From Candidatus Latescibacterota bacterium (GTDB lineage: Bacteria > Latescibacterota > 4484-107), in NCBI GenBank assembly GCA_043804415.1, contig JAZDJA010000164.1, positions 1 to 62,846 of the forward strand: DNA of 62,846 nucleotides, read 5' to 3'. Under the pieces are notes generated by a model that saw only the letters and a program-made list of their open reading frames with translations, was not told the origin of the DNA and ran no database searches. Shown in pieces: positions 12,018-28,721 of this stretch. Position numbers and translations under genes: made by a program. Within the stretch, counting starts at the first letter, position 1; each line of letters opens with the position of its first letter.

Positions 12018-12935
12018 TCAGACGAAGGTGAGCCATCCGTGGCTGTCTTCGTTCTCTCCTGTGAGGATGCCAAAGAAAGCGTCCTGCAAGCGCTTTGTGA
12101 TCGGACCCCGCCCCTGTCCGACCGCGATCTTATCGATGGAACGGATTGGGGTAATCTCGGCGGCCGAGCCGGTGAAGAAAACCTCGTCTGCGATATACAG
12201 GGCCTCCCGTGGAATCAGCTGCTGGCGCACTTTGTAGCCCATATCGCGGGCCAACCGGATGACTGAGTGACGCGTGATTCCTGGCAGGATGCAGGATGCG
12301 GACGGCGGGGTAAATATCGCGTCGTTCTTGACGATGAAAATATTCTCGCCGCTGCCCTCGCTGACGTATCCGGAGGTGTCCAGCCCGATGCCTTCGGCAT
12401 ACCCATTGGCCAGGGCCTCCATTTTGATCAACTGGGAATTGATGTAATTTCCGCCCATCTTCGCCAGTGTCGGGAAGGTATTGGGCGCCGGTCGGTTCCA
12501 GGAGGAGATGCACACGTCAATGCCCTGCTCGATGGCCTCCTGGCCCAGGTACTGTCCCCATTGCCATACCGCGATCACCACGTTGAGCGGACATTGCATG
12601 GGATTTACACCGATGCTTCCGTATCCCCGAAAAACGACAGGACGGACGTAGCAATCTTTGAGTTTGTTGACGCGAATCGTTTCCAGGGACGCCGCAATCA
12701 GTTCCTCTCTGGTATAGGGAATCTCCATTCGGTAGATCTTGGCGGACTGGAAAAGCCGGTCGATATGATCCTCCAGCCGAAAGCAGGCAGAACCCTTTTT
12801 GGTGTTATAACAGCGGAATCCCTCAAAAGCACTGGAGCCATAGTGTACGACGTGGGAAAGCACGTGAATGTTTGCGTCGTCCCAGTTCACAAATTTGCCG
12901 TCGAACCAAATCTTCTCCGATTTTTCAAATGCCAT
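12018..12935 (-). CDS. ilvE: branched-chain amino acid aminotransferase (class IV)
   Basis: 305 aa from ATG 12935 (GGGAGAAAA RBS). Motifs: [31 protein letters not shown]. Confidence 0.92.
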
Positions 12936-22518: not shown

Positions 22519-22664
22519 AAATGCTGGACCGCAGAGACACAGCGGCCGCGGAGAATGGCTAAACAAATAGGCACAAAGGCAAAAAGGCACAAAGAAAATC
22601 GAAGCGGTTTTCGCAGATTAGGGCACAGGTTCCGATAGATGGGATTTCCTCTCAAGGTGACGCC

Positions 22665-22835
22665 ATGAAAGCAGAATACGATCTCTCCAGGATGAAATCC
22701 CGGCGCAACCCCTACGCGAAGTTGTTCAAAAAGCAGATAGCGATCTATGTGGACATTGAAACGAATGAATTACTTGAAAATTGGGAGCTTGCGGAGCAAC
22801 ACGAAGCATTGAAGAAGATTTCACCATTGGAGTAA
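22665..22835 (+). CDS. 56-aa protein with a BrnA/CopG-antitoxin-like N-terminus, the first gene of a two-gene cassette with the DUF2442 gene
   Basis: Below the ORF-track cutoff, so I translated it myself: MKAEYDLSRMKSRRNPYAKLFKKQIAIYVDIETNELLENWELAEQHEALKKISPLE. AAGG RBS 7 nt upstream. The stop is 1 nt before the next ATG. Confidence 0.5.
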   Translation: MKAEYDLSRMKSRRNPYAKLFKKQIAIYVDIETNELLENWELAEQHEALKKISPLE

Positions 22836-22836
22836 A

Positions 22837-23088
22837 ATGATGCTGGAAGTAACCAAAGCAAGATACGAAAAAGAGTATAGAATCCGGATTGAATTCAATG
22901 ATGGTAAGTCCGGTGTAGTGGATTTGAAAGACGACTTATGGGGGTCGGTATTTGAACCTCTTAAAGACCAAAATGAATTCAAGCGATTTACCGTCTCTGA
23001 GATCCTCCATACGATCTCCTGGGAAAATGATGCCGACTTTGCACCGGAATATTTGTATCATAAGTGCCTGACAGAATGCCCCACTTGA
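22837..23088 (+). CDS. DUF2442 domain protein (small TA-associated family)
   Basis: 83 aa. YRIRIEFNDGKSGVVDLKDDLWGSVFEPLKD...ISWENDADFAPEYLY matches the DUF2442 pattern. Confidence 0.75.
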   Translation: MMLEVTKARYEKEYRIRIEFNDGKSGVVDLKDDLWGSVFEPLKDQNEFKRFTVSEILHTISWENDADFAPEYLYHKCLTECPT

Positions 23089-23134
23089 CTGCTGTTTCGA
23101 GTGAGGGATACGATGGAATAACTGGAGATTCACC

Positions 23135-23395
23135 ATGTCCAAAACAGCAACCGTCAGAGCCGGTATCGAACCGGGTTTGAAGGAGGAAGCGGAACGCGTG
23201 TTTCACGGACTTGGATTATCCACAACCCAAGCCATTGCGTTGTTCTATCGCCAGGTCAAGCTGCGTAACCGCTTGCCCTTCGATGTGGCCATTCCGAATG
23301 AGACCACTCGCAAGACCTTCGGGGATACAGACGCCGGGCGTAATCTTATGGTCTGTGAGGATACAAAGGACATGTTTGAGAAATTGGGGATCTGA
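23135..23395 (+). CDS. RelB/DinJ-family antitoxin
   Basis: 86 aa. TVRAGIEPGLKEEAERVFHGLGLSTTQAIALFYRQV is the DinJ ribbon-helix-helix signature. Confidence 0.8.
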   Translation: MSKTATVRAGIEPGLKEEAERVFHGLGLSTTQAIALFYRQVKLRNRLPFDVAIPNETTRKTFGDTDAGRNLMVCEDTKDMFEKLGI

Positions 23396-23436
23396 TGGTT
23401 ACCCCGGTCTATACAAAGCAGTTCTCGACAAGCTAA
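23395..23436 (+). pseudogene. 13-codon remnant of the cognate YafQ-type toxin gene
   Basis: An ATG overlapping the dinJ stop (TGATG) reads MVTPVYTKQFSTS-stop. The ..YTKQF.. start resembles YafQ-family N-termini, and a full toxin (~90 aa) is absent. Confidence 0.35.
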
Positions 23437-23475
23437 GGTTGAGCGAACGTTGCGACCACAAGAGGAGGCTCTATT

Positions 23476-23676
23476 ATGCAAGCAATTCAGGAAATTGAAT
23501 CAGCCGTTTCTCAGCTATCCATGAATGATCTCGCTGGTTTTAGAGAGTGGTTTGACAAATTCGATGCAGAAGTATGGGATAAACAATTTGAAAATGATGT
23601 GAAGTCAGGGAAGCTGGATCATCTTGCTAACCAAGCTATTGCAGATTTTCGGGCTGGTAGGTGCAAAGAGTTATGA
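23476..23676 (+). CDS. small antitoxin-like protein paired with the downstream RelE/ParE-type toxin
   Basis: 66 aa. LSMNDLAGFREWFDKFDAEVWDKQFENDVKSGKLDHLANQAIADFRAGRCKEL. GAGGAGG RBS. There is a 4-nt ATGA overlap with the next gene. Confidence 0.7.
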   Translation: MQAIQEIESAVSQLSMNDLAGFREWFDKFDAEVWDKQFENDVKSGKLDHLANQAIADFRAGRCKEL

Positions 23677-23927
23677 GACATTTTACCACTCCTTCATTTT
23701 GGGAATGTTATAGGAGCCTACTCCCTTCCATTCAGGAATTAGCAGATAAGAATTTTGAACTTCTGAAAGCAGACCCGAAACATCCGTCCTTGCACCTAAA
23801 GAAGGTGCGGAAGTATTGGTCCGCAAGGGTAGGAAGAAAATATCGTACTTTAGCAGTAAGGATTGAAGAGGGGTTGCTCTGGTTCTGGATCGGAACCCAT
23901 GCCGAATACGATGAATGGGTGCGGTAA
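23673..23927 (+). CDS. RelE/ParE-superfamily toxin
   Basis: 84 aa from ATG 23673. FWECYRSLLPSIQELADKNFELLKADPKHPSLHLKKV..YWSARVGRKYRTLAV...LWFWIGTHAEYDEWV is typical of this toxin family. Confidence 0.75.
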   Translation: MRHFTTPSFWECYRSLLPSIQELADKNFELLKADPKHPSLHLKKVRKYWSARVGRKYRTLAVRIEEGLLWFWIGTHAEYDEWVR

Positions 23928-23931
23928 CAGT

Positions 23932-23978
23932 CACGGTCCGGCCACTGTGAGCGCCGGTTGTTGTCCCTCTGCAGAGCC
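23932..23978 (+). repeat. degenerate partial copy (47 nt, 40/47 identical, ungapped) of the core of the cobalamin riboswitch at 26152-26198
   Basis: Left copy: cacggtccggccactgtgagcgccggttgttgtccctctgcagagcc. Right copy: cacggtcccgccactgtgagcgacggttgtaccccgtctgcaaagcc. The left copy lacks the 5' half of the aptamer and has lost the gacgg/ccgtc pairing. Confidence 0.8.
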
Positions 23979-24063
23979 AAAAAAAAGCCGAAGCGCCCTT
24001 TTTTAGACGTGCGTAGTGAGTCGCATCCGATCCAAAAATATCGGAGATGCCTTCAAAAAACTA

Positions 24064-24092
24064 TTGACAAGCATGCGCTCAACACGTATATT
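24064..24092 (+). promoter_or_regulatory. consensus sigma70 promoter (TTGACA-17 nt-TATATT) driving the DUF262-HEPN cassette
   Basis: ttgaca agcatgcgctcaacacg tatatt read directly, followed by a ~240-270-nt AT-rich leader. Confidence 0.6.
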
Positions 24093-24331
24093 TTCCCCTC
24101 GTGAAAAGTGCCTGCTGAAAGGCTAATATCCTGCAACTCGCCGCAAAAGAAAAACCAAGGTTGCTGCACAATTTTCTGATTAGATTAGATATTACGATCT
24201 TTTTTGAAGAGTTCTATGCGTCAACCAGCCTATTATGAAACGAGGCTCCTGGTCGTAATAATACATTAAACAGAAAGATAGGTAGCGGAGCAGCTTGTGA
24301 TATATTGCAGTGCGCAGTATAAGCTAAGGTT

Positions 24332-25468
24332 ATGCAAAAAAAACAAACTGAGGGAATATTAATGAATGAATATTTAGAGGAACTCCATCACGAAATTGAA
24401 CAGGAACAAAACATAGAAGATGAGTCCGATGGAGAGGAAGTATCTCCCTCTCGTTATGACATTACAAGCTATGGTATTGATTTTGATGTGGAGGGTGTTG
24501 TCAGGAGAGTTCAGAAAGGAGATATTTATATTCCTGATTTTCAGAGAAAGTTCGTGTGGAAAATGACAGAATCATCAAGATTCATTGAGTCACTTCTGCT
24601 AGGCCTTCCTGTGCCTGGAATATTTTTAGCTCAAGATCCAGAATCTGGGAAAATGCTTGTCATTGATGGACAACAGAGATTGCTAACTTTAAAATTTTTC
24701 TTCGACGGGTATTTCAATCCTAAGGAAGATGCAGCTATCAAAAGAGTTTTTAAGCTGTCCAAAGTTCAAGAACCATACATAGACAAAACATACGAAACCC
24801 TAAACGGTAAGGATCGAACAAATCTTGGAAATTGCGTTATCCATTCCACTGTTGTCAAACAAGATAGTCCTGCGGATGATGACACCAGTATCTATCATAT
24901 ATTTGAAAGGTTAAATAGTGGGGGCAAAAAACTAGCCGCACAAGAAATACGAATAGCAGTATATCATGGCCATTTTCTCGAATTGCTGAAAACAATGAAT
25001 TCCAATCCTGCTTGGAGAAGAATTTTTGGGCCAGAAAATGACAGGATGAGAGATCAAGAACTAATACTAAGATTTCTTGCAATGCTTGAAGGTTCTCAAA
25101 ACTACAAAAAGCCGATGGTCGACTTTTTGAATAAATTCTTAAGAAGAAACAGAAATCCAGGTACTGATGAACTCAAGCGATATCATGATATTTTTGTAGA
25201 TACAATAAATGCCTTCCATGAAGCACTTGGCCATAAGATTTTCAGACCTGCGAGGGCTTTGAATGTCGCATTTTTCGAAGCGTCGATGGTAGGGTTGGCA
25301 AGAAGAATTGCCAGTAATGTGGAGATCGAACAAGCAAAAATAAAAGAAGCATATGACAGATTGAATGATAATCTCAAATTTAAGGAGTTGATATCACAAT
25401 CGACAACAGACATCAGTAATGTTTCTGAACGATTAGAGATTGCCACAACAATTTTCATGGAGGTGTAG
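24332..25468 (+). CDS. DUF262 (ParB-like NTPase/nuclease superfamily) protein lacking a DUF1524/HNH nuclease half
   Basis: 378 aa. Motifs: IPDFQRKFVW, VIDGQQRLLTL, IFERLNSGGKKL. The alternative start ATG 24362 has a GAGGGA RBS. Sampled 60-nt lines are 32-35% GC. Confidence 0.85.
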   Translation: MQKKQTEGILMNEYLEELHHEIEQEQNIEDESDGEEVSPSRYDITSYGIDFDVEGVVRRVQKGDIYIPDFQRKFVWKMTESSRFIESLLLGLPVPGIFLAQDPESGKMLVIDGQQRLLTLKFFFDGYFNPKEDAAIKRVFKLSKVQEPYIDKTYETLNGKDRTNLGNCVIHSTVVKQDSPADDDTSIYHIFERLNSGGKKLAAQEIRIAVYHGHFLELLKTMNSNPAWRRIFGPENDRMRDQELILRFLAMLEGSQNYKKPMVDFLNKFLRRNRNPGTDELKRYHDIFVDTINAFHEALGHKIFRPARALNVAFFEASMVGLARRIASNVEIEQAKIKEAYDRLNDNLKFKELISQSTTDISNVSERLEIATTIFMEV

Positions 25469-25474
25469 CACGCC

Positions 25475-25951
25475 ATGAAAATTGTTGAATTGAATCGGCA
25501 GGCTCAATCCATAAAAAGACTCATAAAATCTACGGCTGAATCAACCAATTTTAATCTGGAGTTGCAGGGGCATTGGGGAAAGTATCTTTGCGTTCTCGCA
25601 TCAGGTTTTCTAGAAAACGCTATAAGTGAAATATACATCGAACTTGCAAGTAATTCGTCATCACCTCAAGTGACATCATTTACGAGGAGAATGCTGGACA
25701 GAATCCATAATCCAATGGCATCAAAATTCATTGAGACTGCATGTTCTTTCAAGCGAGAATGGGGCGCAGAACTAAAAGAGTATTTTGAACTTAATCCAAA
25801 AGCAAAAGAGGCCATCGATTCCATCATGAGGAATAGGCATCTAATAGCACATGGAAAAACAGCAACTGTTTCTGTGGCTAGATTGGCTGAGTATCTTGAT
25901 GGTAGCATCGAAGCTCTGGAGTTTATTGAAAATCAATGCGGTATAGCATAG
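25475..25951 (+). CDS. small HEPN-superfamily protein (RiboL-PSP / MAE_28990-like type), predicted RNase
   Basis: 158 aa. It starts 6 nt after the DUF262 stop, with a GGAGGTG RBS inside the end of the upstream gene. C-terminal IMRNRHLIAHG is an Rx4-6H motif. Confidence 0.65.
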   Translation: MKIVELNRQAQSIKRLIKSTAESTNFNLELQGHWGKYLCVLASGFLENAISEIYIELASNSSSPQVTSFTRRMLDRIHNPMASKFIETACSFKREWGAELKEYFELNPKAKEAIDSIMRNRHLIAHGKTATVSVARLAEYLDGSIEALEFIENQCGIA

Positions 25952-26097
25952 CAGTCGGCTCAAGTCGGACTGCAATTCGGCTACGCTACATTGCAAGCGC
26001 TGGCCGCGGCGTTGGAGTACTGGCATAGTTACTAAATCATCTCATAAACCAAGTGGAAACAGCTTTCCACCTGAATTAAACTCTACATCGAACATAC

Positions 26098-26350
26098 CTA
26101 TGGAATAGGGTGCCCCGCAAGGGGAGAATAGGGAAGTCGGTGCAAATCCGACACGGTCCCGCCACTGTGAGCGACGGTTGTACCCCGTCTGCAAAGCCAC
26201 TGTCCCGAATGGGATGGGAAGGCGCAGACGGACAGTCGCAAGTCAGGAGACCTGCCCCGTTCCAGTTCCCGAAGAGAAGCCTTCGAGGTCAAGGCTGGCG
26301 GACGCTGCATCGATTCCCCAGCCTGTCTTTTGGAAGGTTGGGGTTTTTTT
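26098..26350 (+). promoter_or_regulatory. cobalamin (B12) riboswitch with terminator-type expression platform
   Basis: ggtgccccgcaaggggagaatagggaagtcggtgcaaatccgacacggtcccgccactgtgagcg ... agtcaggagacctgcc (B12 box). It lies upstream of a TonB-dependent receptor. Confidence 0.9.
26316..26350 (+). terminator. intrinsic terminator of the riboswitch expression platform
   Basis: ccccagcct-gtcttttgga-aggttgggg followed by T7. Confidence 0.7.
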
Positions 26351-26489
26351 GTGCTCAAAGAATTGCACTGCAGAGAGAAACGCAGGTGGACGTAAGGAAG
26401 AAAGACCGCTTGATTCCTGCCTTTCTTTACCTTTACCCATACATGCTCTTGCTGTCCGCGCACGCTGATGCAAGCCAAAAAGAGGACTG

Positions 26490-28721
26490 ATGCGAGCTGG
26501 AATGATAGTGGGATTCCTGATACTATGGGCAGCACCCCTCTGGGCCATCCAGACGGGCCGGATCGTGGGCCGGGTGACGGATGCGGATACCGGAGAATCC
26601 TTAGCTGGCGCGGTGGTACTGCTTCCGGGCACGAACTTGGGAGCCATAGCGGACACGTCGGGGTATTTTCGGATGGAGGGCGTGCCAGCCGGTATGGTAC
26701 AGGTCGAAGCACGGATGGTGGGATATGCGCCTTCGGCGCGGGTGAACCTCCGAGTTGAAGCCGGGAAGGTGGTGGCGTTTTCCCTTTCGCTGGTGCCGAT
26801 CCGGTACAAGATGAAGGAGGTTTCGGTGATCGCGGAGCGGTTGCCTTTCGCTCTGGCCGAGCGTTCTCCGGTATCCCTTCGGGTGATCCGGGCGGCGGAG
26901 TTCGAGCATAGGGTTACATCCGTGTCTGAGCTTTTGTCAGAGGCTGGGGGCGTGCAGATCAAAACATCTGGCGGATTGGGCAGCTACAGCACGGTTTCCA
27001 TACGGGGCAGTTCATCGGAACAGGTGAACGTGTATCTCGATGGGGTGCTATTGAACAGCACGTTGGGTGGTGGTGTCGACGTGGGGAATATTCCGCTCTC
27101 CCACGTGGAGCGGGTCGAGGTCTATAAAGGGGCAACACCTGTGGAACTAGGCGGAGAAGCCATCGGAGGGGCGATCAATATCGTGACCCAGTCTCCTGAT
27201 CGTCGGCGCGTCGGAATTGGCGCGTTCGGCGGTACGTTCGGCACCGCGAAGGCGAACTGGATACTCTCGGAGAAAAAGGAGAAGTTGGGGCTACTCTTTG
27301 CGATGGATTACGTCCGAAGCGACAATAATTTCCGATTTTTAGATGACAACGGAACACGGTATAATCAAGAAGACGACACGTGGATGCAACGCCGAAACAA
27401 CGATTTTCAGGGATTTAATGCCATTGGCAAGATCGACTATGCGCTGCGGCCATCTGCCACGCTGATTTTGAACAACAACTTCTATTGCTCAGACAAGGGG
27501 ATTCCCGGCATTGGCAGCTTCCAGTCCAAATCCGCCCGCTTTCGGACGCTTCGGAATTTGACGGAGGGGTCGCTCATCCTCAGACAGGTATTCGAAAGGA
27601 TGACGTTTCGGCTGAAGGGCGTATCCAGCTATTATGCTGGCGACTACCGTGATCTAGAGAACGAGGTGGGACTGGGACGGCAGGACAATCACAACGTCAC
27701 GCGTACGGTCGGAGGCGAATTGCACATCCAGACACTGCTCTGGAATCATCAGATTTTATCGGGCGTTCTTCGCGGAAGCACTGAGGGCTTCAAGCCTACA
27801 GATCGCATGCAGAATACGTTCCTGTTGGACAACAAAAGGGCGAGTTTCTCGGCGGCTCTGGAGGATGAAATTTTACTCTGGGGGGATCGGCTGAGCATCG
27901 TGCCGTCTGGGCAGTGGGACGTGCTTTTCAGTGAATTTATTGGGGATGGACACTGGATCGAGGGGCCGGCACGGAAGCAACGGCATGCCATGTTCAGCCG
28001 TAGGTTGGGCGTGCGGTTTAAGGCGGCTTCTTGGATGGTACTCAAGGCGAACGTGGCGAAATCCTATCGTGCGCCCTCGTTTTATGAATTGTTTGGGGAC
28101 AAGGGATCGGTTATCGGGAATACGAACTTGACGCCGGAGGAGGGGCTTAACCGGGACGTGGGATGCCGTGTAAGCGGGAAACAAGGATCCTCGGACGCTT
28201 TTTTGGAGGTTAGTTATTACGACAATCGCCTGAGGGACGCGATCCAGTTTATCCAGCATTCCCAAAATGTCTCGAGACCCGAGAACATCGGACGGGCGCA
28301 GATTCGAGGGTTGGAGTGCGCAGCCGGGGCAAATTTCTTCCACCATCTCATGGTGGGGGGTAACCTGACGCGGCAGGACGCGCAAAATATGACCGAACTG
28401 TATGGCGGCATCTATCTCGATAAATGGTTTCCGAATAAGCCCCGATATGAGGGCAGCGGACGGATAGAGGTGTCTGACGAACGCTGGGGGAAGCTGTTTT
28501 ACGAAGTCAGCGCAACCGGCAAAAATTATCACGATCTCTACAATAAATTCCCCGTGCCAAAGCGGGTGCTGCACAATGTGGGGATTACCGTCTTCGGCGC
28601 ACGGAGCAGCTTTCATATTACGGTGGAGGGCAAGAATCTGACGGATAATCAGGTCGCGGATCTGTGGGGATATCCGCTTCCCGGACGGGCGTATCATATG
28701 GGTGTTCGGGGGAGCCTCTAA
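26490..28721 (+). CDS. TonB-dependent outer-membrane receptor with N-terminal carboxypeptidase-regulatory-like domain, a B12-regulated BtuB-like candidate
   Basis: 743 aa. Signal peptide, GRVTDADTGESLAGAVV (CarbopepD_reg-like), plug region, and a long beta-barrel. It follows the riboswitch directly. Confidence 0.88.
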   Translation: MRAGMIVGFLILWAAPLWAIQTGRIVGRVTDADTGESLAGAVVLLPGTNLGAIADTSGYFRMEGVPAGMVQVEARMVGYAPSARVNLRVEAGKVVAFSLSLVPIRYKMKEVSVIAERLPFALAERSPVSLRVIRAAEFEHRVTSVSELLSEAGGVQIKTSGGLGSYSTVSIRGSSSEQVNVYLDGVLLNSTLGGGVDVGNIPLSHVERVEVYKGATPVELGGEAIGGAINIVTQSPDRRRVGIGAFGGTFGTAKANWILSEKKEKLGLLFAMDYVRSDNNFRFLDDNGTRYNQEDDTWMQRRNNDFQGFNAIGKIDYALRPSATLILNNNFYCSDKGIPGIGSFQSKSARFRTLRNLTEGSLILRQVFERMTFRLKGVSSYYAGDYRDLENEVGLGRQDNHNVTRTVGGELHIQTLLWNHQILSGVLRGSTEGFKPTDRMQNTFLLDNKRASFSAALEDEILLWGDRLSIVPSGQWDVLFSEFIGDGHWIEGPARKQRHAMFSRRLGVRFKAASWMVLKANVAKSYRAPSFYELFGDKGSVIGNTNLTPEEGLNRDVGCRVSGKQGSSDAFLEVSYYDNRLRDAIQFIQHSQNVSRPENIGRAQIRGLECAAGANFFHHLMVGGNLTRQDAQNMTELYGGIYLDKWFPNKPRYEGSGRIEVSDERWGKLFYEVSATGKNYHDLYNKFPVPKRVLHNVGITVFGARSSFHITVEGKNLTDNQVADLWGYPLPGRAYHMGVRGSL

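What the first reader, a model, noticed from the sequence alone, without database searches (positions are those of the whole stretch)
22519..26097. 3.5-kb low-GC accessory island wedged between a housekeeping aminotransferase gene and a B12 riboswitch
Composition changes abruptly. 60-nt lines I counted inside 24.3-25.6 kb are 32-35% GC, against 57-68% in flanking genes. The content is entirely conflict-type: a small BrnA-like ORF plus DUF2442, DinJ plus a truncated YafQ, an antitoxin plus a RelE/ParE toxin, and then a DUF262-HEPN cassette with its own consensus promoter. No integrase, transposase or tRNA boundary is present, so the mobilisation mechanism is not obvious. The island looks like a small defence and addiction-module hotspot built by successive insertions.
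Basis: partly seen in the sequence, partly recalled or inferred. Interest (0 to 1): 0.7.

Follow-up and report, generated by a model that had tools for sequence, protein, structure and literature searches.

The report
Toxin-antitoxin and phage-defence hotspot
A 3.5-kb low-GC stretch in an uncultured Latescibacterota genome is a gene-swapping hotspot between two conserved genes that holds decaying toxin-antitoxin modules and one intact two-gene phage-defence system of a known type; it is a good example of a known phenomenon, with two small unexplained extras.

Summary
Window 22561-26046 averages 42% GC against 57% outside (z = -5.6; tetranucleotide z up to 17). It is the only such stretch in the 62.8-kb window.

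Five related Latescibacterota contigs keep the same flanks (lon, engB, aminotransferase ... cobalamin riboswitch, TonB receptor) but carry four different cargo sets in the gap. All are toxin-antitoxin or abortive-infection genes on the same strand. No integrase or transposase lies within about 10 kb, and there are no attC-like repeats. This is an integrase-less hotspot filled piecemeal.

The DUF262-HEPN pair is a PD-T4-2-type defence module. The A protein matches PADLOC PD-T4-2_A at 8e-62 and B is Pfam PF18735. The same pair recurs in six unrelated genomic contexts. It is not Menshen (no NsnB or NsnC) and not GmrSD (no DUF1524).

- The consensus promoter is not the cassette's own. It lies in a resident non-coding element that is 83% conserved in a relative, upstream of an unrelated gene.
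- Most of the toxin-antitoxin modules are eroded: a BrnA chimera, a solo DUF2442, and DinJ with a YafQ remnant.

One unexplained feature: a 48-nt internal fragment of the riboswitch lies to the left of the defence cassette, and a relative has an independent 58-nt fragment. These are recurrent recombination scars.

Verdict: new member of a known kind, of modest interest.

The parts
22519..22560 (+). Conserved trailer after the aminotransferase stop codon; left boundary of the hotspot
   Evidence: It aligns in the window, L001, L091 and L093, and homology breaks right after ...GGAGAATGGC. The GC change point is at 22551.
22665..22835 (+). 56-aa chimeric ORF: a BrnA-type antitoxin N-terminus (~30 aa) joined to an unrelated tail; no BrnT toxin is present
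   Evidence: The ORF has no Pfam or NCBIfam hit of its own. It has 15 weak relatives that match only residues 1 to about 40. Those with an intact C-terminus hit PF14384 BrnA_antitoxin.
22825..23118 (+). DUF2442 cassette (gene 22837-23088) with its ribosome-binding site; a solo gene with no DUF4160 partner
   Evidence: Pfam DUF2442 3.7e-15. Weak match to NCBIfam antitoxin DhiA. The block is 94.9% identical in nucleotides to L001 with sharp edges. Third codon positions are 90.5% identical, against 61% in the adjacent aminotransferase.
23135..23395 (+). RelB/DinJ-family antitoxin gene, now an orphan; close to host-like composition (GC 0.52, GC3 0.61)
   Evidence: Pfam RelB 3.7e-9 and TIGR02384 7.5e-14. 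Composition.
23382..23460 (+). Probable remnant of the YafQ toxin gene (C-terminal motifs, with internal deletions)
   Evidence: The frame reads NWGSDGYPGLYKAVLDKLRLSERCDH. Against the C-terminus of an annotated Legionella YafQ it scores 39, against 22.9 +/- 4.9 in shuffles (p = 0.009). The ATG-led 13-codon frame is not significant.
23476..23676 (+). 66-aa antitoxin-like partner of the ParE-like toxin (no family model)
   Evidence: It lies upstream of the toxin and overlaps it (ATGA overlap at 23673). Homologues occur at the same hotspot in L001, one truncated and one full-length. It has no Pfam or NCBIfam hit.
23661..23927 (+). ParE-like toxin gene (likely start ATG at 23673); the only TA pair in the island that looks intact
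   Evidence: Pfam PF24732 ParE_like, 27.6 bits against a cut-off of 24.4, covering profile positions 2-66 of 67.
23932..23979 (+). Riboswitch scar: a 48-nt copy of positions 62-109 of the downstream cobalamin riboswitch
   Evidence: 41 of 48 positions match 26152-26199. Local score is 61 against 21 +/- 2.3 in shuffles (maximum 29). The match does not extend significantly in either direction. An independent analogue exists in L091.
24037..24333 (+). Resident conserved non-coding element carrying the near-consensus promoter (TTGACA-17-TATATT, 24064-24092)
   Evidence: It is 83% identical to L091 11188-11482, where the same 11/12 promoter precedes an unrelated ORF. Stop codons occur in all frames. 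No RNA structure signal was found. Its conservation equals that of coding core genes and far exceeds third-position identity of 61%.
24362..25468 (+). Gene A of a PD-T4-2-type defence pair: ParB/DUF262 NTPase domain plus a helical C-terminal domain, with no nuclease domain
   Evidence: PADLOC NsnA 5e-72 and PD-T4-2_A 8e-62, both full length. Pfam GmrSD_N 3e-29 and no DUF1524 hit. PxFQR, DGQQR, RLNxGG and EIR are invariant in a 46-sequence alignment. The AlphaFold2 model has pLDDT 81, and its nearest solved structures are BrxU, SspE and ParB N-domains.
25446..25487 (+). 15-bp perfect hairpin across the A-stop/B-start junction that buries the HEPN gene's ribosome-binding site and start codon
   Evidence: Found by the repeat finder as I8. 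Folding energy is -24.2 kcal/mol, z = -5.0. Homologues show only weak (L088) or no (L087) counterparts.
25475..25951 (+). Gene B: HEPN (RiboL-PSP family) predicted RNase, the effector of the pair
   Evidence: Pfam PF18735 4e-13 over the whole protein. N120-R121-H122-L-x-A-H126-G-K is invariant in homologues. A PF18735 gene of 158-180 aa follows the A gene in six unrelated contexts.
26047..26090 (+). Conserved leader just upstream of the riboswitch; right boundary of the hotspot
   Evidence: It aligns with L091 12655-12698, and homology is lost further upstream. Leader plus riboswitch are 93% identical to L091.
26091..26273 (+). Intact cobalamin riboswitch controlling the TonB-dependent receptor (26490-28721)
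   Evidence: Rfam RF00174, 116.4 bits, model positions 1-189 of 189. About 97% identical to the L091 riboswitch. L091 has cob salvage genes downstream.

Best explanation
Window ~22561-26046 is an integrase-less accessory-gene hotspot. It sits between the trailer of a core aminotransferase gene and the leader of a cobalamin riboswitch/TonB-receptor operon in a Candidatus Latescibacterota genome. Small co-oriented cassettes are gained, exchanged between related lineages, truncated and lost there by recombination. That recombination is probably homologous exchange anchored in the conserved flanks plus illegitimate joins (inferred).

The present cargo has four parts.
1. An eroding array of type II toxin-antitoxin cassettes: a BrnA-derived chimera with a solo DUF2442; DinJ with a YafQ remnant; and one apparently intact antitoxin/ParE-like pair.
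2. A 48-nt scar copied from the riboswitch.
3. A resident conserved non-coding element with a strong sigma-70-type promoter.
4. Immediately downstream of that promoter, an imported low-GC two-gene defence module of the PD-T4-2 type.

For the module, the ParB-fold DUF262 NTPase (A) is proposed to be the sensor and regulator. The RiboL-PSP-family HEPN protein (B) is proposed to be an RNase effector that cuts cellular or phage RNA on infection and stops phage growth.

What is shown: domain identities, intact catalytic motifs, strict A-B linkage across unrelated genomes, the hotspot's variable cargo, and the mosaic structure. What is inferred: transcription from the resident promoter, translational coupling of B to A through the junction hairpin, the sensor/effector roles, and the recombination route.
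For: Hotspot.
- L091/L092 (aminotransferase 88% aa identical, TonB 77%) keep tig-clpP-clpX-lon-engB-aminotransferase ... riboswitch-TonB-cob genes. Their gap holds a 205-aa ORF and a MazE-like gene instead.
- L094 and L097 carry MNT-HEPN, and L094 also GNAT and AbiEii.
- L001 carries DUF2442 plus different small genes.
- All the gaps are lower in GC than their flanks.
- Contigs L002, L093 and L098 end at the hotspot.

Mosaic and erosion.
- The DUF2442 block is 94.9% identical to L001, against 82-85% for core genes.
- L001 has a truncated antitoxin copy.
- P0362 is a BrnA-N/DinJ-C deletion chimera.
- A YafQ remnant follows dinJ.
- The island is compositionally layered.

No mobility genes or attC-like repeats were found.

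Defence module.
- PADLOC and Pfam assignments.
- The A-B pair is conserved beside an MmeI-type R-M system, inside a type I R-M operon, at a Cronobacter prophage junction, on an E. coli IncF plasmid and on a Hymenobacter plasmid.
- Catalytic motifs are invariant.
- The structure model shows no hidden nuclease.
- PD-T4-2 ('DUF262, HEPN') protects E. coli against T4, also in its native strain (PMC9519451; domain table in PMC10952713).

Promoter ownership.
Against: - No empty site was found, so insertion as such is inferred from differing cargo, not seen directly.
- The B protein does not hit any PADLOC model, including PD-T4-2_B, even at E = 10. No B homologue does either, enterobacterial ones included, so that model is uninformative rather than contradictory.
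- The A protein scores higher against NsnA (Menshen) than against PD-T4-2_A.
- The ECOR65 PD-T4-2 proteins could not be fetched for direct comparison.
- No mechanism for PD-T4-2 has been published in the searchable library, so the sensor/effector model rests on domain analogy.
- Sigma-70-type promoter rules are untested in Latescibacterota.
- The junction hairpin is not conserved in homologues.
Confidence: 0.8

Rival explanations
1. The riboswitch is itself the target or anchor of a specific cassette-capture process. Incoming DNA recombines with the highly conserved riboswitch and leader, by Campbell-type integration of circular fragments or by homology-facilitated illegitimate recombination. 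Each event leaves a partial riboswitch duplicate to the left of the newest cassette. The resident promoter element would then act like an integron Pc promoter, expressing whatever lands downstream.
For: - Two independent scars exist. The window's covers riboswitch positions 62-109 and L091's covers positions 80-137.
- Each scar lies to the left of the cassette nearest the riboswitch.
- Each is closer to its own genome's riboswitch (85% and 93%) than the two are to each other.
- The riboswitch is about 97% identical between the window and L091. Riboswitch plus leader are 93% identical, the best-conserved DNA measured in the neighbourhood, against 82-85% for core genes.
- All cargo genes in every relative are co-oriented with the promoter and the riboswitch.
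Against: - The scars are internal fragments that lack the riboswitch 5' end. Simple one-step Campbell or homology-facilitated illegitimate recombination models do not predict that, so every model tried needs a second deletion.
- The endpoints differ between the two genomes, so there is no defined crossover site.
- The right edge of the variable region lies about 45 nt upstream of the riboswitch, not inside it.
- No recombinase is nearby.
- Only two cases are known.
- Tandem duplication followed by deletion would give the same picture without any targeting.
Confidence: 0.12
2. The whole 3.5 kb is a single mobile element or genomic island acquired in one event from a low-GC donor.
For: - The region is contiguous, uniformly co-oriented and lower in GC than the host.
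- The content is all of the kind carried by mobile elements.
Against: - There are at least three compositional layers: dinJ at GC 0.52, other TA genes at 0.41-0.45, and A/B at 0.38-0.39.
- Different blocks have different histories. DUF2442 is 95% identical to L001. The promoter element is 83% identical to L091 and sits at a different position within that gap. A/B homology to other loci is limited to the coding sequences.
- No terminal repeats flank the whole island and there are no mobility genes.
Confidence: 0.04
3. The low-GC segment is an assembly or binning chimera of a metagenome-assembled contig and not a real part of this genome.
For: - The organism is known only from metagenomes.
- Related contigs often break exactly here.
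Against: - Both junctions are embedded in sequence shared with relatives. The trailer, the first bases after it (L093) and the DUF2442 block (L001) lie on the left. The promoter element, leader and riboswitch (L091) lie inside and on the right.
- L091 spans the same hotspot on an 89.7-kb contig with the same architecture.
- The riboswitch scar ties the interior of the island to this genome's own riboswitch.
Confidence: 0.03

Closest known systems
PD-T4-2 (Vassallo et al. 2022, E. coli ECOR65; 'DUF262, HEPN')
   Same: - Two co-oriented, abutting genes: a ~365-aa DUF262/ParB-like protein without DUF1524, followed by a ~150-180-aa PF18735 (RiboL-PSP) HEPN protein.
- Total length is about 1.54-1.59 kb.
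- The A protein matches the PADLOC PD-T4-2_A model end to end at 8e-62.
- It occurs in defence islands, prophage hotspots and plasmids.
   Different: - The host is an uncultured Latescibacterota.
- B does not hit any PADLOC model.
- A scores slightly better against NsnA.
- The pair sits downstream of a resident host promoter and next to a riboswitch.
- This copy has a strong hairpin at the A/B junction.
- Function was not tested here, and the ECOR65 sequences were not compared directly.
Menshen (NsnABC)
   Same: The A protein matches the NsnA model over its full length (5e-72). NsnA is described as a ParB-DUF262 domain plus a ParBDB DNA-binding domain (PMC12065111).
   Different: There is no NsnB ATPase and no NsnC effector. 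The next gene is a HEPN protein and after that the riboswitch. It may work along similar lines (DUF262 sensor plus a separate effector), but it is not a Menshen system.
GmrSD / BrxU / SspE (DUF262-DUF1524 type IV restriction enzymes)
   Same: It shares the N-terminal DUF262 ParB-fold NTPase with the DGQQR motif. BrxU and SspE are the nearest solved structures.
   Different: There is no DUF1524 HNH nuclease domain. The C-terminal half is helical with no nuclease match. The effector is a separate HEPN RNase.
Core defence hotspots flanked by conserved genes (P. aeruginosa cDHS, PMC10250203; E. coli hotspots, PMC10121019) and chromosomal TA spots with erosion (Photorhabdus, PMC13617665)
   Same: - Fixed flanking core genes with variable defence or TA cargo between relatives.
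- Unclear mobilisation.
- Loss of toxins and pseudogenisation leave orphan antitoxins.
   Different: - It is much smaller (3.5 kb, cassettes of 0.3-1.6 kb).
- It is in a candidate phylum.
- It is bounded by a riboswitch and not by a tRNA or protein gene.
- TA and defence genes are mixed here, whereas Belot et al. (PMC13617665) report that the two rarely cluster in Photorhabdus.
- It has riboswitch-derived scars and a conserved internal promoter element.
Chromosomal integron cassette arrays / CALINs
   Same: Small, co-oriented, mostly promoter-less cassettes rich in TA genes, lying downstream of a strong conserved promoter.
   Different: There is no integron integrase within about 10 kb. There are no attC-like imperfect inverted repeats, and the gaps between cassettes are 1-80 nt.

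Membership tests
PD-T4-2-type DUF262-HEPN defence pair | Gene A is a DUF262/ParB-like protein lacking DUF1524 | tested here: met
   Pfam GmrSD_N 3e-29 with no DUF1524 hit. PADLOC PD-T4-2_A 8e-62, protein residues 19-376 against profile 7-362 of 363. The structure model shows no nuclease domain.
PD-T4-2-type DUF262-HEPN defence pair | Gene B, immediately downstream on the same strand, is a PF18735 HEPN protein | tested here: met
   Pfam HEPN_RiboL-PSP 4.2e-13, residues 7-155, with a 6-nt gap after gene A. PMC10952713 lists PF18735 for PD-T4-2.
PD-T4-2-type DUF262-HEPN defence pair | B matches the PADLOC PD-T4-2_B model | tested here: inconclusive
   There is no PADLOC hit for B even at E = 10. 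No B homologue hits either, including Cronobacter and E. coli plasmid copies, so the model, if one exists, is too narrow to discriminate.
PD-T4-2-type DUF262-HEPN defence pair | Catalytic motifs are intact (DGQQR in A; R-x4-H in B) | tested here: met
   D102-G-Q-Q-R106, P58/Q61/R62, R183-L-N-x-G-G and E195-I-R197 are invariant in A (46 sequences). N120-R121-H122...H126 is invariant in B.
PD-T4-2-type DUF262-HEPN defence pair | Direct sequence similarity to the ECOR65 proteins (RCO39066.1 and the unannotated second CDS) | not tested
   The sequences could not be reached. A blastn search of E. coli complete genomes with the Cronobacter homologue found nothing.
PD-T4-2-type DUF262-HEPN defence pair | Confers phage resistance | not testable with these tools
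   Shown only for the E. coli exemplar (PMC9519451).
Menshen (NsnABC) | NsnA-like protein (ParB-DUF262 plus ParBDB) | tested here: met
   PADLOC NsnA 5.1e-72, protein residues 20-377 against profile 22-381 of 385.
Menshen (NsnABC) | An NsnB ATPase gene follows NsnA | tested here: not met
   The next gene is a 158-aa HEPN protein, and no ATPase ORF lies in the island. The requirement is stated in PMC12065111.
Menshen (NsnABC) | An NsnC effector gene (inactive PIN plus nuclease) is third | tested here: not met
   After the HEPN gene come 139 nt and then the riboswitch.
GmrSD/BrxU/SspE type IV restriction | C-terminal DUF1524 HNH nuclease domain | tested here: not met
   No Pfam hit in residues 210-378 even at E = 5. 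Fold search gives only ParB-fold matches.
RelB/DinJ-YafQ type II TA | Antitoxin of the RelB/DinJ family | tested here: met
   TIGR02384 51.7 bits against a cut-off of 45.65.
RelB/DinJ-YafQ type II TA | Intact YafQ/RelE toxin gene downstream | tested here: not met
   Only 80 nt separate dinJ from the next gene. One frame keeps faint YafQ C-terminal motifs (p = 0.009).
ParE-like toxin with upstream antitoxin | Toxin matches the ParE_like family and overlaps a small upstream gene | tested here: met
   PF24732 27.6 bits against a cut-off of 24.4. There is an ATGA overlap at 23673-23676. The antitoxin has no family model.
BrnT/BrnA type II TA | Full BrnA antitoxin domain and a BrnT toxin gene | tested here: not met
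   Only the N-terminal ~30 aa are BrnA-like, shown through relatives that hit PF14384. There is no BrnT ORF.
DUF4160-DUF2442 pair (DhiA-type antitoxin) | DUF2442 gene with an adjacent DUF4160 gene | tested here: not met
   DUF2442 is present (3.7e-15). The upstream ORF is BrnA-derived, and L001 has a truncated antitoxin there. No DUF4160 is present.
Integron / CALIN | Integron integrase and/or attC sites between cassettes | tested here: not met
   No integrase lies within about 10 kb. No inverted repeats occur in the 1-80-nt spacers between cassettes.
Site-specific integrative island (tRNA/tmRNA type) | Integrase gene, and direct repeats of the target at both ends of the island | tested here: not met
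   There is no integrase. The only tRNA is 8 kb away. The riboswitch repeat is internal (23932) and not at the island's left end.
Core-gene-flanked defence/TA hotspot | Same flanking core genes with different cargo in related genomes | tested here: met
   Four cargo sets occur in the window, L001, L091/L092 and L094/L097. An empty site was not found.

The most novel reading that the evidence does not exclude
The cobalamin riboswitch and its leader, the most conserved DNA in the neighbourhood, act as the recombination anchor or target for an integrase-independent cassette-capture process in this Latescibacterota lineage. Each capture leaves an internal riboswitch fragment as a footprint. A resident, selectively maintained promoter element expresses whatever cassette lands downstream. 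Together these would form a natural 'promoter plus landing pad' analogous to an integron platform, but without an integrase or attC sites.
Probability: 0.1. Interest if true: 0.7.

Novelty: new member of a known kind. Interest (0 to 1): 0.38.

Why it matters
- It extends a phage-defence system validated in E. coli (PD-T4-2) and the idea of a core-gene-flanked defence/TA hotspot to an uncultured candidate phylum. The pair recurs across several phyla, on plasmids and in prophages.
- It gives a compact, well-delimited natural example of cassette turnover without any recognisable mobility gene. The example includes dated layers, a recently exchanged cassette, deletion chimeras and orphan antitoxins.
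- Two small features are worth a specialist's look. One is the recurrent riboswitch-derived scars. The other is a conserved non-coding promoter element that appears to have been co-opted to drive an imported defence operon.
- If the scars reflect a real targeting mechanism, they would bear on the open question of how integrase-less defence islands are loaded.

Tried and rejected
- Exact-sequence contig look-ups for four window proteins found nothing. The window's proteins were not found by exact look-up, even where a later homologue search listed the same sequence (P0241).
- The single metagenome scan, with the TonB receptor as query, returned only a C-terminal fragment (L081) and an unrelated receptor. 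The genome scan returned close relatives only on short contigs. The useful relatives came from homologue searches followed by contig look-ups.
- Extending the riboswitch scar: neither side is significant (downstream p about 0.3, upstream p about 0.08).
- The scar as a functional RNA or terminator: folding is not better than shuffles (z = +0.7).
- The conserved promoter element as a structured RNA: plus-strand z = +0.8 and +0.5, minus-strand z = +1.7, and only one compensatory pair. Only sub-threshold, chance-level Rfam matches overlap it, and no conserved ORF was found. Its 30-nt core is absent from viral contigs.
- A terminator after the element in L091: a hairpin is present but is not distinguishable from shuffles.
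- The integron/attC idea was rejected.
- The 11-nt match AAGCTAAGGTT at two cassette borders (D14) is at chance level by my estimate.
- Conservation of the A/B junction hairpin: not conserved.
- Fetching E. coli PD-T4-2 by blastn with the Cronobacter locus: no match.
- AlphaFold2 on B from a single sequence gave pLDDT 45, which is unusable.
- The 13-codon 'MVTPVYTKQFSTS' reading as the YafQ N-terminus is not significant.

Full report

Yes. Sliding-window GC falls from 0.53-0.63 in the flanks to 0.42-0.51 across 22.5-24.15 kb, and to 0.36-0.40 across 24.15-25.95 kb. In 500-nt windows the island averages 0.419 against 0.570 +/- 0.027 for the rest of the window, z = -5.6.

Third-codon-position GC is 0.33 for the DUF262 and HEPN genes. 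It is 0.69 for the aminotransferase and 0.66 for the TonB receptor. The tetranucleotide distance from the window background peaks at z = 17.5.

This is the only sustained low-GC stretch in the 62.8 kb, and the cumulative change point is at 22551.

The gene calls hold. The island holds DUF2442, RelB/DinJ, ParE_like, GmrSD_N/DUF262 and HEPN_RiboL-PSP genes. It is flanked by a class-V aminotransferase and a full-length cobalamin riboswitch (116 bits) ahead of a TonB-dependent receptor.

The promoter TTGACA-17-TATATT at 24064-24092 is real as a motif (11 of 12 matches). The only tRNA is 8 kb away. No integrase or transposase occurs in the island or within about 10 kb.

**2. Which organism, and what do relatives carry?**

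The aminotransferase places the window in Candidatus Latescibacterota. Five related contigs are informative.

- **L091/L092.** The aminotransferase is 88% aa identical and the TonB receptor 77%. L091 is an 89.7-kb contig. It preserves trigger factor-ClpP-ClpX-Lon-EngB-aminotransferase on one side. On the other side it has riboswitch-TonB receptor-FlgD_ig-cob salvage genes. Its 1.6-kb gap holds a 205-aa ORF with no Pfam match and an orphan MazE-like gene.
- **L094 (82%) and L097 (85%).** An MNT-HEPN fusion follows the aminotransferase. In L094 a GNAT gene and an AbiEii gene come next.
- **L001 (87%).** It carries DUF2442 and then different small genes.
- **L002, L093 and L098.** These contigs end at the hotspot, as expected for a strain-variable site.

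Every gap is lower in GC than its flanks, and all cargo is on the same strand.

Alignment fixes the edges of the variable region. The left edge is a conserved ~42-nt trailer after the aminotransferase stop, ending at 22560. The right edge is a conserved ~44-nt leader before the riboswitch, starting at 26047. I did not find an empty site.

**3. The island is a mosaic with different histories.**

Core genes are 82-85% identical in nucleotides between the window and L001 or L091. Their third codon positions are only ~61% identical.

Against that background, the 294-nt DUF2442 block is 94.9% identical to L001, with third positions at 90.5%. Homology breaks sharply on both sides. This cassette was exchanged recently.

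Upstream of DUF2442 the two genomes differ. The window has a 56-aa ORF whose first ~30 residues are BrnA-type. Its relatives with intact C-termini hit PF14384, and the ORF itself hits nothing. L001 has a truncated copy of the ParE-partner antitoxin at that position.

One database protein, P0362, is a BrnA N-terminus fused to the last 32 residues of this island's DinJ (30 of 32 identical). That is a deletion variant of this same array in some relative.

dinJ is followed by 80 nt. One frame of that stretch keeps faint YafQ C-terminal motifs (p = 0.009). The ATG-led 13-codon frame does not.

Only the antitoxin/ParE-like pair looks complete. This pattern of toxin loss leaving orphan antitoxins matches what Belot et al. 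describe for chromosomal TA spots (PMC13617665).

**4. The DUF262-HEPN pair.**

The A protein (368 aa from the MNEYLEEL start) matches PADLOC NsnA (5e-72) and PD-T4-2_A (8e-62) end to end.

- **Not Menshen.** Menshen requires an NsnB ATPase and an NsnC effector (PMC12065111). Neither is present.
- **Not GmrSD/BrxU/SspE.** Those carry a DUF1524 nuclease, and A has none.
- **PD-T4-2.** It is recorded as 'DUF262, HEPN': two CDSs spanning 1,540 nt in ECOR65, validated against T4 also by deletion in the native strain (PMC9519451). Its HEPN is listed under PF18735 (PMC10952713). That is the family of the window's B protein (4e-13). The ParB/RiboL-PSP-HEPN operon association was already noted in 2013 (PMC3710099).

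The pair is strictly linked. A 158-180-aa PF18735 gene directly follows the A homologue in six unrelated contexts:

- beside an MmeI-type R-M system;
- inside a type I R-M operon;
- at a prophage integrase junction in Cronobacter;
- on an E. coli IncF plasmid next to ccdAB and pemIK;
- on a Hymenobacter plasmid next to a tyrosine recombinase;
- in the window itself.

Homologues of A number more than 7,400 at E <= 1e-10. They occur on 738 plasmids and in temperate phages.

The catalytic motifs are invariant: PxFQR, DGQQR, RLNxGG and EIR in A, and N-R-H-L-x-A-H-G-K in B.

The AlphaFold2 model of A has pLDDT 81. It shows a ParB-fold N-domain and a helical C-terminal half. BrxU, SspE and CTP-binding ParB, Noc and KorB N-domains are its nearest solved structures, and nothing nuclease-like matches.

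No PADLOC model hits B or any of its homologues, so that negative result is uninformative.

I file the pair as a PD-T4-2-type system. The caveat is that the ECOR65 sequences themselves were not compared.

**5. How it most likely works.**

Shown: domains, motifs, linkage and genomic context.

Inferred, by analogy with DUF262 proteins of GmrSD/BrxU/SspE and with HEPN effectors such as ApeA or DARNA:
- A binds DNA or a nucleotide signal through its ParB-fold NTPase and its helical domain, and it controls B.
- B, probably as a dimer, cleaves RNA and arrests infection.

No mechanism for PD-T4-2 is published in the searchable library. I could not establish from the text whether it acts by abortive infection or by direct immunity.

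In this copy, a perfect 15-bp hairpin (-24.2 kcal/mol, z = -5.0) spans the A stop and the B start and buries B's ribosome-binding site and ATG. That suggests B is translated only when ribosomes finish A. The hairpin is weak or absent in homologues, so it is a local feature.

**6. The promoter is not the cassette's own.**

Homology between the window and other PD-T4-2-like loci covers only 24343-25941.

The ~295 nt upstream (24037-24333), including the promoter, are 83% identical to L091 11188-11482. There the same 11/12 promoter sits ~95 nt after the aminotransferase gene and ahead of an unrelated ORF.

The element has stop codons in all frames. It shows no RNA-structure signal on either strand. 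Only sub-threshold, chance-level Rfam matches overlap it, and its core is absent from viral contigs.

At 83% identity it is as conserved as the coding core genes and far above the ~61% of third codon positions. So it is vertically inherited and under selection.

The imported defence pair therefore landed directly downstream of a resident promoter. The element's original role is unknown.

**7. Riboswitch scars.**

A 48-nt direct repeat links 23932-23979 to 26152-26199. The left copy starts 5 nt after the ParE-like stop codon. The right copy lies inside the riboswitch at positions 62-109. 41 of 48 positions are identical, including the lineage-specific peripheral helix. The score is 61 against 21 +/- 2.3 in shuffles, and the match does not extend.

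L091 has its own 58-nt fragment at 12338-12395. It corresponds to riboswitch positions 80-137 and is 54 of 58 identical to its own riboswitch (score 96 against a shuffle maximum of 34). It lies immediately to the left of the MazE-like gene that abuts the leader.

The two fragments have different endpoints. Each is closer to its own riboswitch than the two are to each other. So these are independent events.

Both fragments are internal pieces. Simple one-step models predict retention of the riboswitch 5' end, whether Campbell integration of a circle carrying riboswitch homology or homology-facilitated illegitimate recombination. Each model I tried therefore needs a second deletion. Tandem duplication followed by deletion explains them equally well. 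I leave the mechanism open. I give 0.1 to the reading that the riboswitch is a specific capture anchor.

**8. Rivals.**

- **A single en-bloc island.** The compositional layers, the different block histories and the absence of terminal repeats contradict this.
- **An assembly chimera.** Sequence shared with relatives on both sides of each junction, and the scar that ties the interior to this genome's riboswitch, contradict this.
- **An integron.** This is excluded by the lack of an integrase and of attC-like repeats.

**9. Verdict.**

The locus is a small core-gene-flanked TA/defence hotspot of a known kind (PMC10250203, PMC10121019). It carries a new member of the PD-T4-2-type DUF262-HEPN family in a candidate phylum.

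The promoter attribution and the 'all conflict-type, all foreign' description need correcting. The recurrent riboswitch scars and the conserved promoter element are the only unexplained parts.

Interest is 0.38, and the novelty class is new member of a known kind.

Noticed in passing
window 24037-24333 (+); L091 11188-11482: A conserved non-coding element with a near-consensus sigma-70-type promoter. It is 83% identical between two genomes whose synonymous sites are only ~61% identical. It precedes unrelated genes in each genome. It has no ORF, no RNA structure signal and only sub-threshold, chance-level Rfam matches. Its function is unknown.
   Followed up: partly
L091 12338-12395 (and the identical L092): An independent 58-nt internal fragment of that genome's own cobalamin riboswitch (positions 80-137, 93% identical). 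It lies just upstream of an orphan MazE-like gene whose 3' end runs into the conserved riboswitch leader.
   Followed up: partly
window 25446-25487 (+): A perfect 15-bp hairpin (-24.2 kcal/mol, z = -5.0) spanning the DUF262 stop and the HEPN start. It buries the HEPN gene's ribosome-binding site and ATG. Homologous loci show it weakly or not at all. It may provide translational coupling in this copy.
   Followed up: partly
window 22825-23118; L001 3618-3911: The DUF2442 cassette is 94.9% identical between two genomes whose core genes are 82-85% identical, and its edges are sharp. This indicates recent lateral exchange of a 0.3-kb cassette between lineages.
   Followed up: yes
protein P0362 (representative library); corresponds to window ~22665-22757 joined to ~23295-23395: A 64-aa database protein is the BrnA-type N-terminus fused to the C-terminal 32 residues of this island's DinJ (30 of 32 identical). 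It is a deletion variant of the same array in an unseen relative. Other relatives of the 56-aa ORF are also chimeras with unrelated C-termini, for example one with an EVE domain.
   Followed up: no
L001 3512-3628 and 3894-4130: L001 has a truncated copy of the window's ParE-partner antitoxin directly upstream of its DUF2442 gene. It has a second full-length homologue downstream, followed by a 110-aa ORF with no Pfam match.
   Followed up: partly
L094 4538-6937; L097 2324-3061: Two further relatives fill the same hotspot with an MNT-HEPN fusion protein. In L094 a GNAT acetyltransferase, an AbiEii gene and a 91-aa ORF follow.
   Followed up: partly
L002, L093, L098 contig ends: Three related metagenomic contigs end within or right at the edges of the hotspot. 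L093 ends 59 nt after the aminotransferase stop and L098 ends inside the riboswitch. This fits assembly breaks at a strain-variable site. The last ~17 nt of L093 match the window's sequence just past the trailer.
   Followed up: no
window 26317-26351 (+): By eye, a hairpin CCCCAGCC...GGTTGGGG followed by seven T lies after the riboswitch aptamer. It is probably the terminator of the expression platform. The terminator scan missed it, probably because of its 12-nt loop.
   Followed up: no
L095 (E. coli IncF plasmid CP057981.1 44807-46402): A DUF262/PF18735-HEPN pair sits next to ccdAB and pemIK on a conjugative IncF plasmid. Protein-level matches to the window's A protein occur on 738 plasmids, mostly conjugative enterobacterial ones; about 52 cover most of the protein.
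   Followed up: partly
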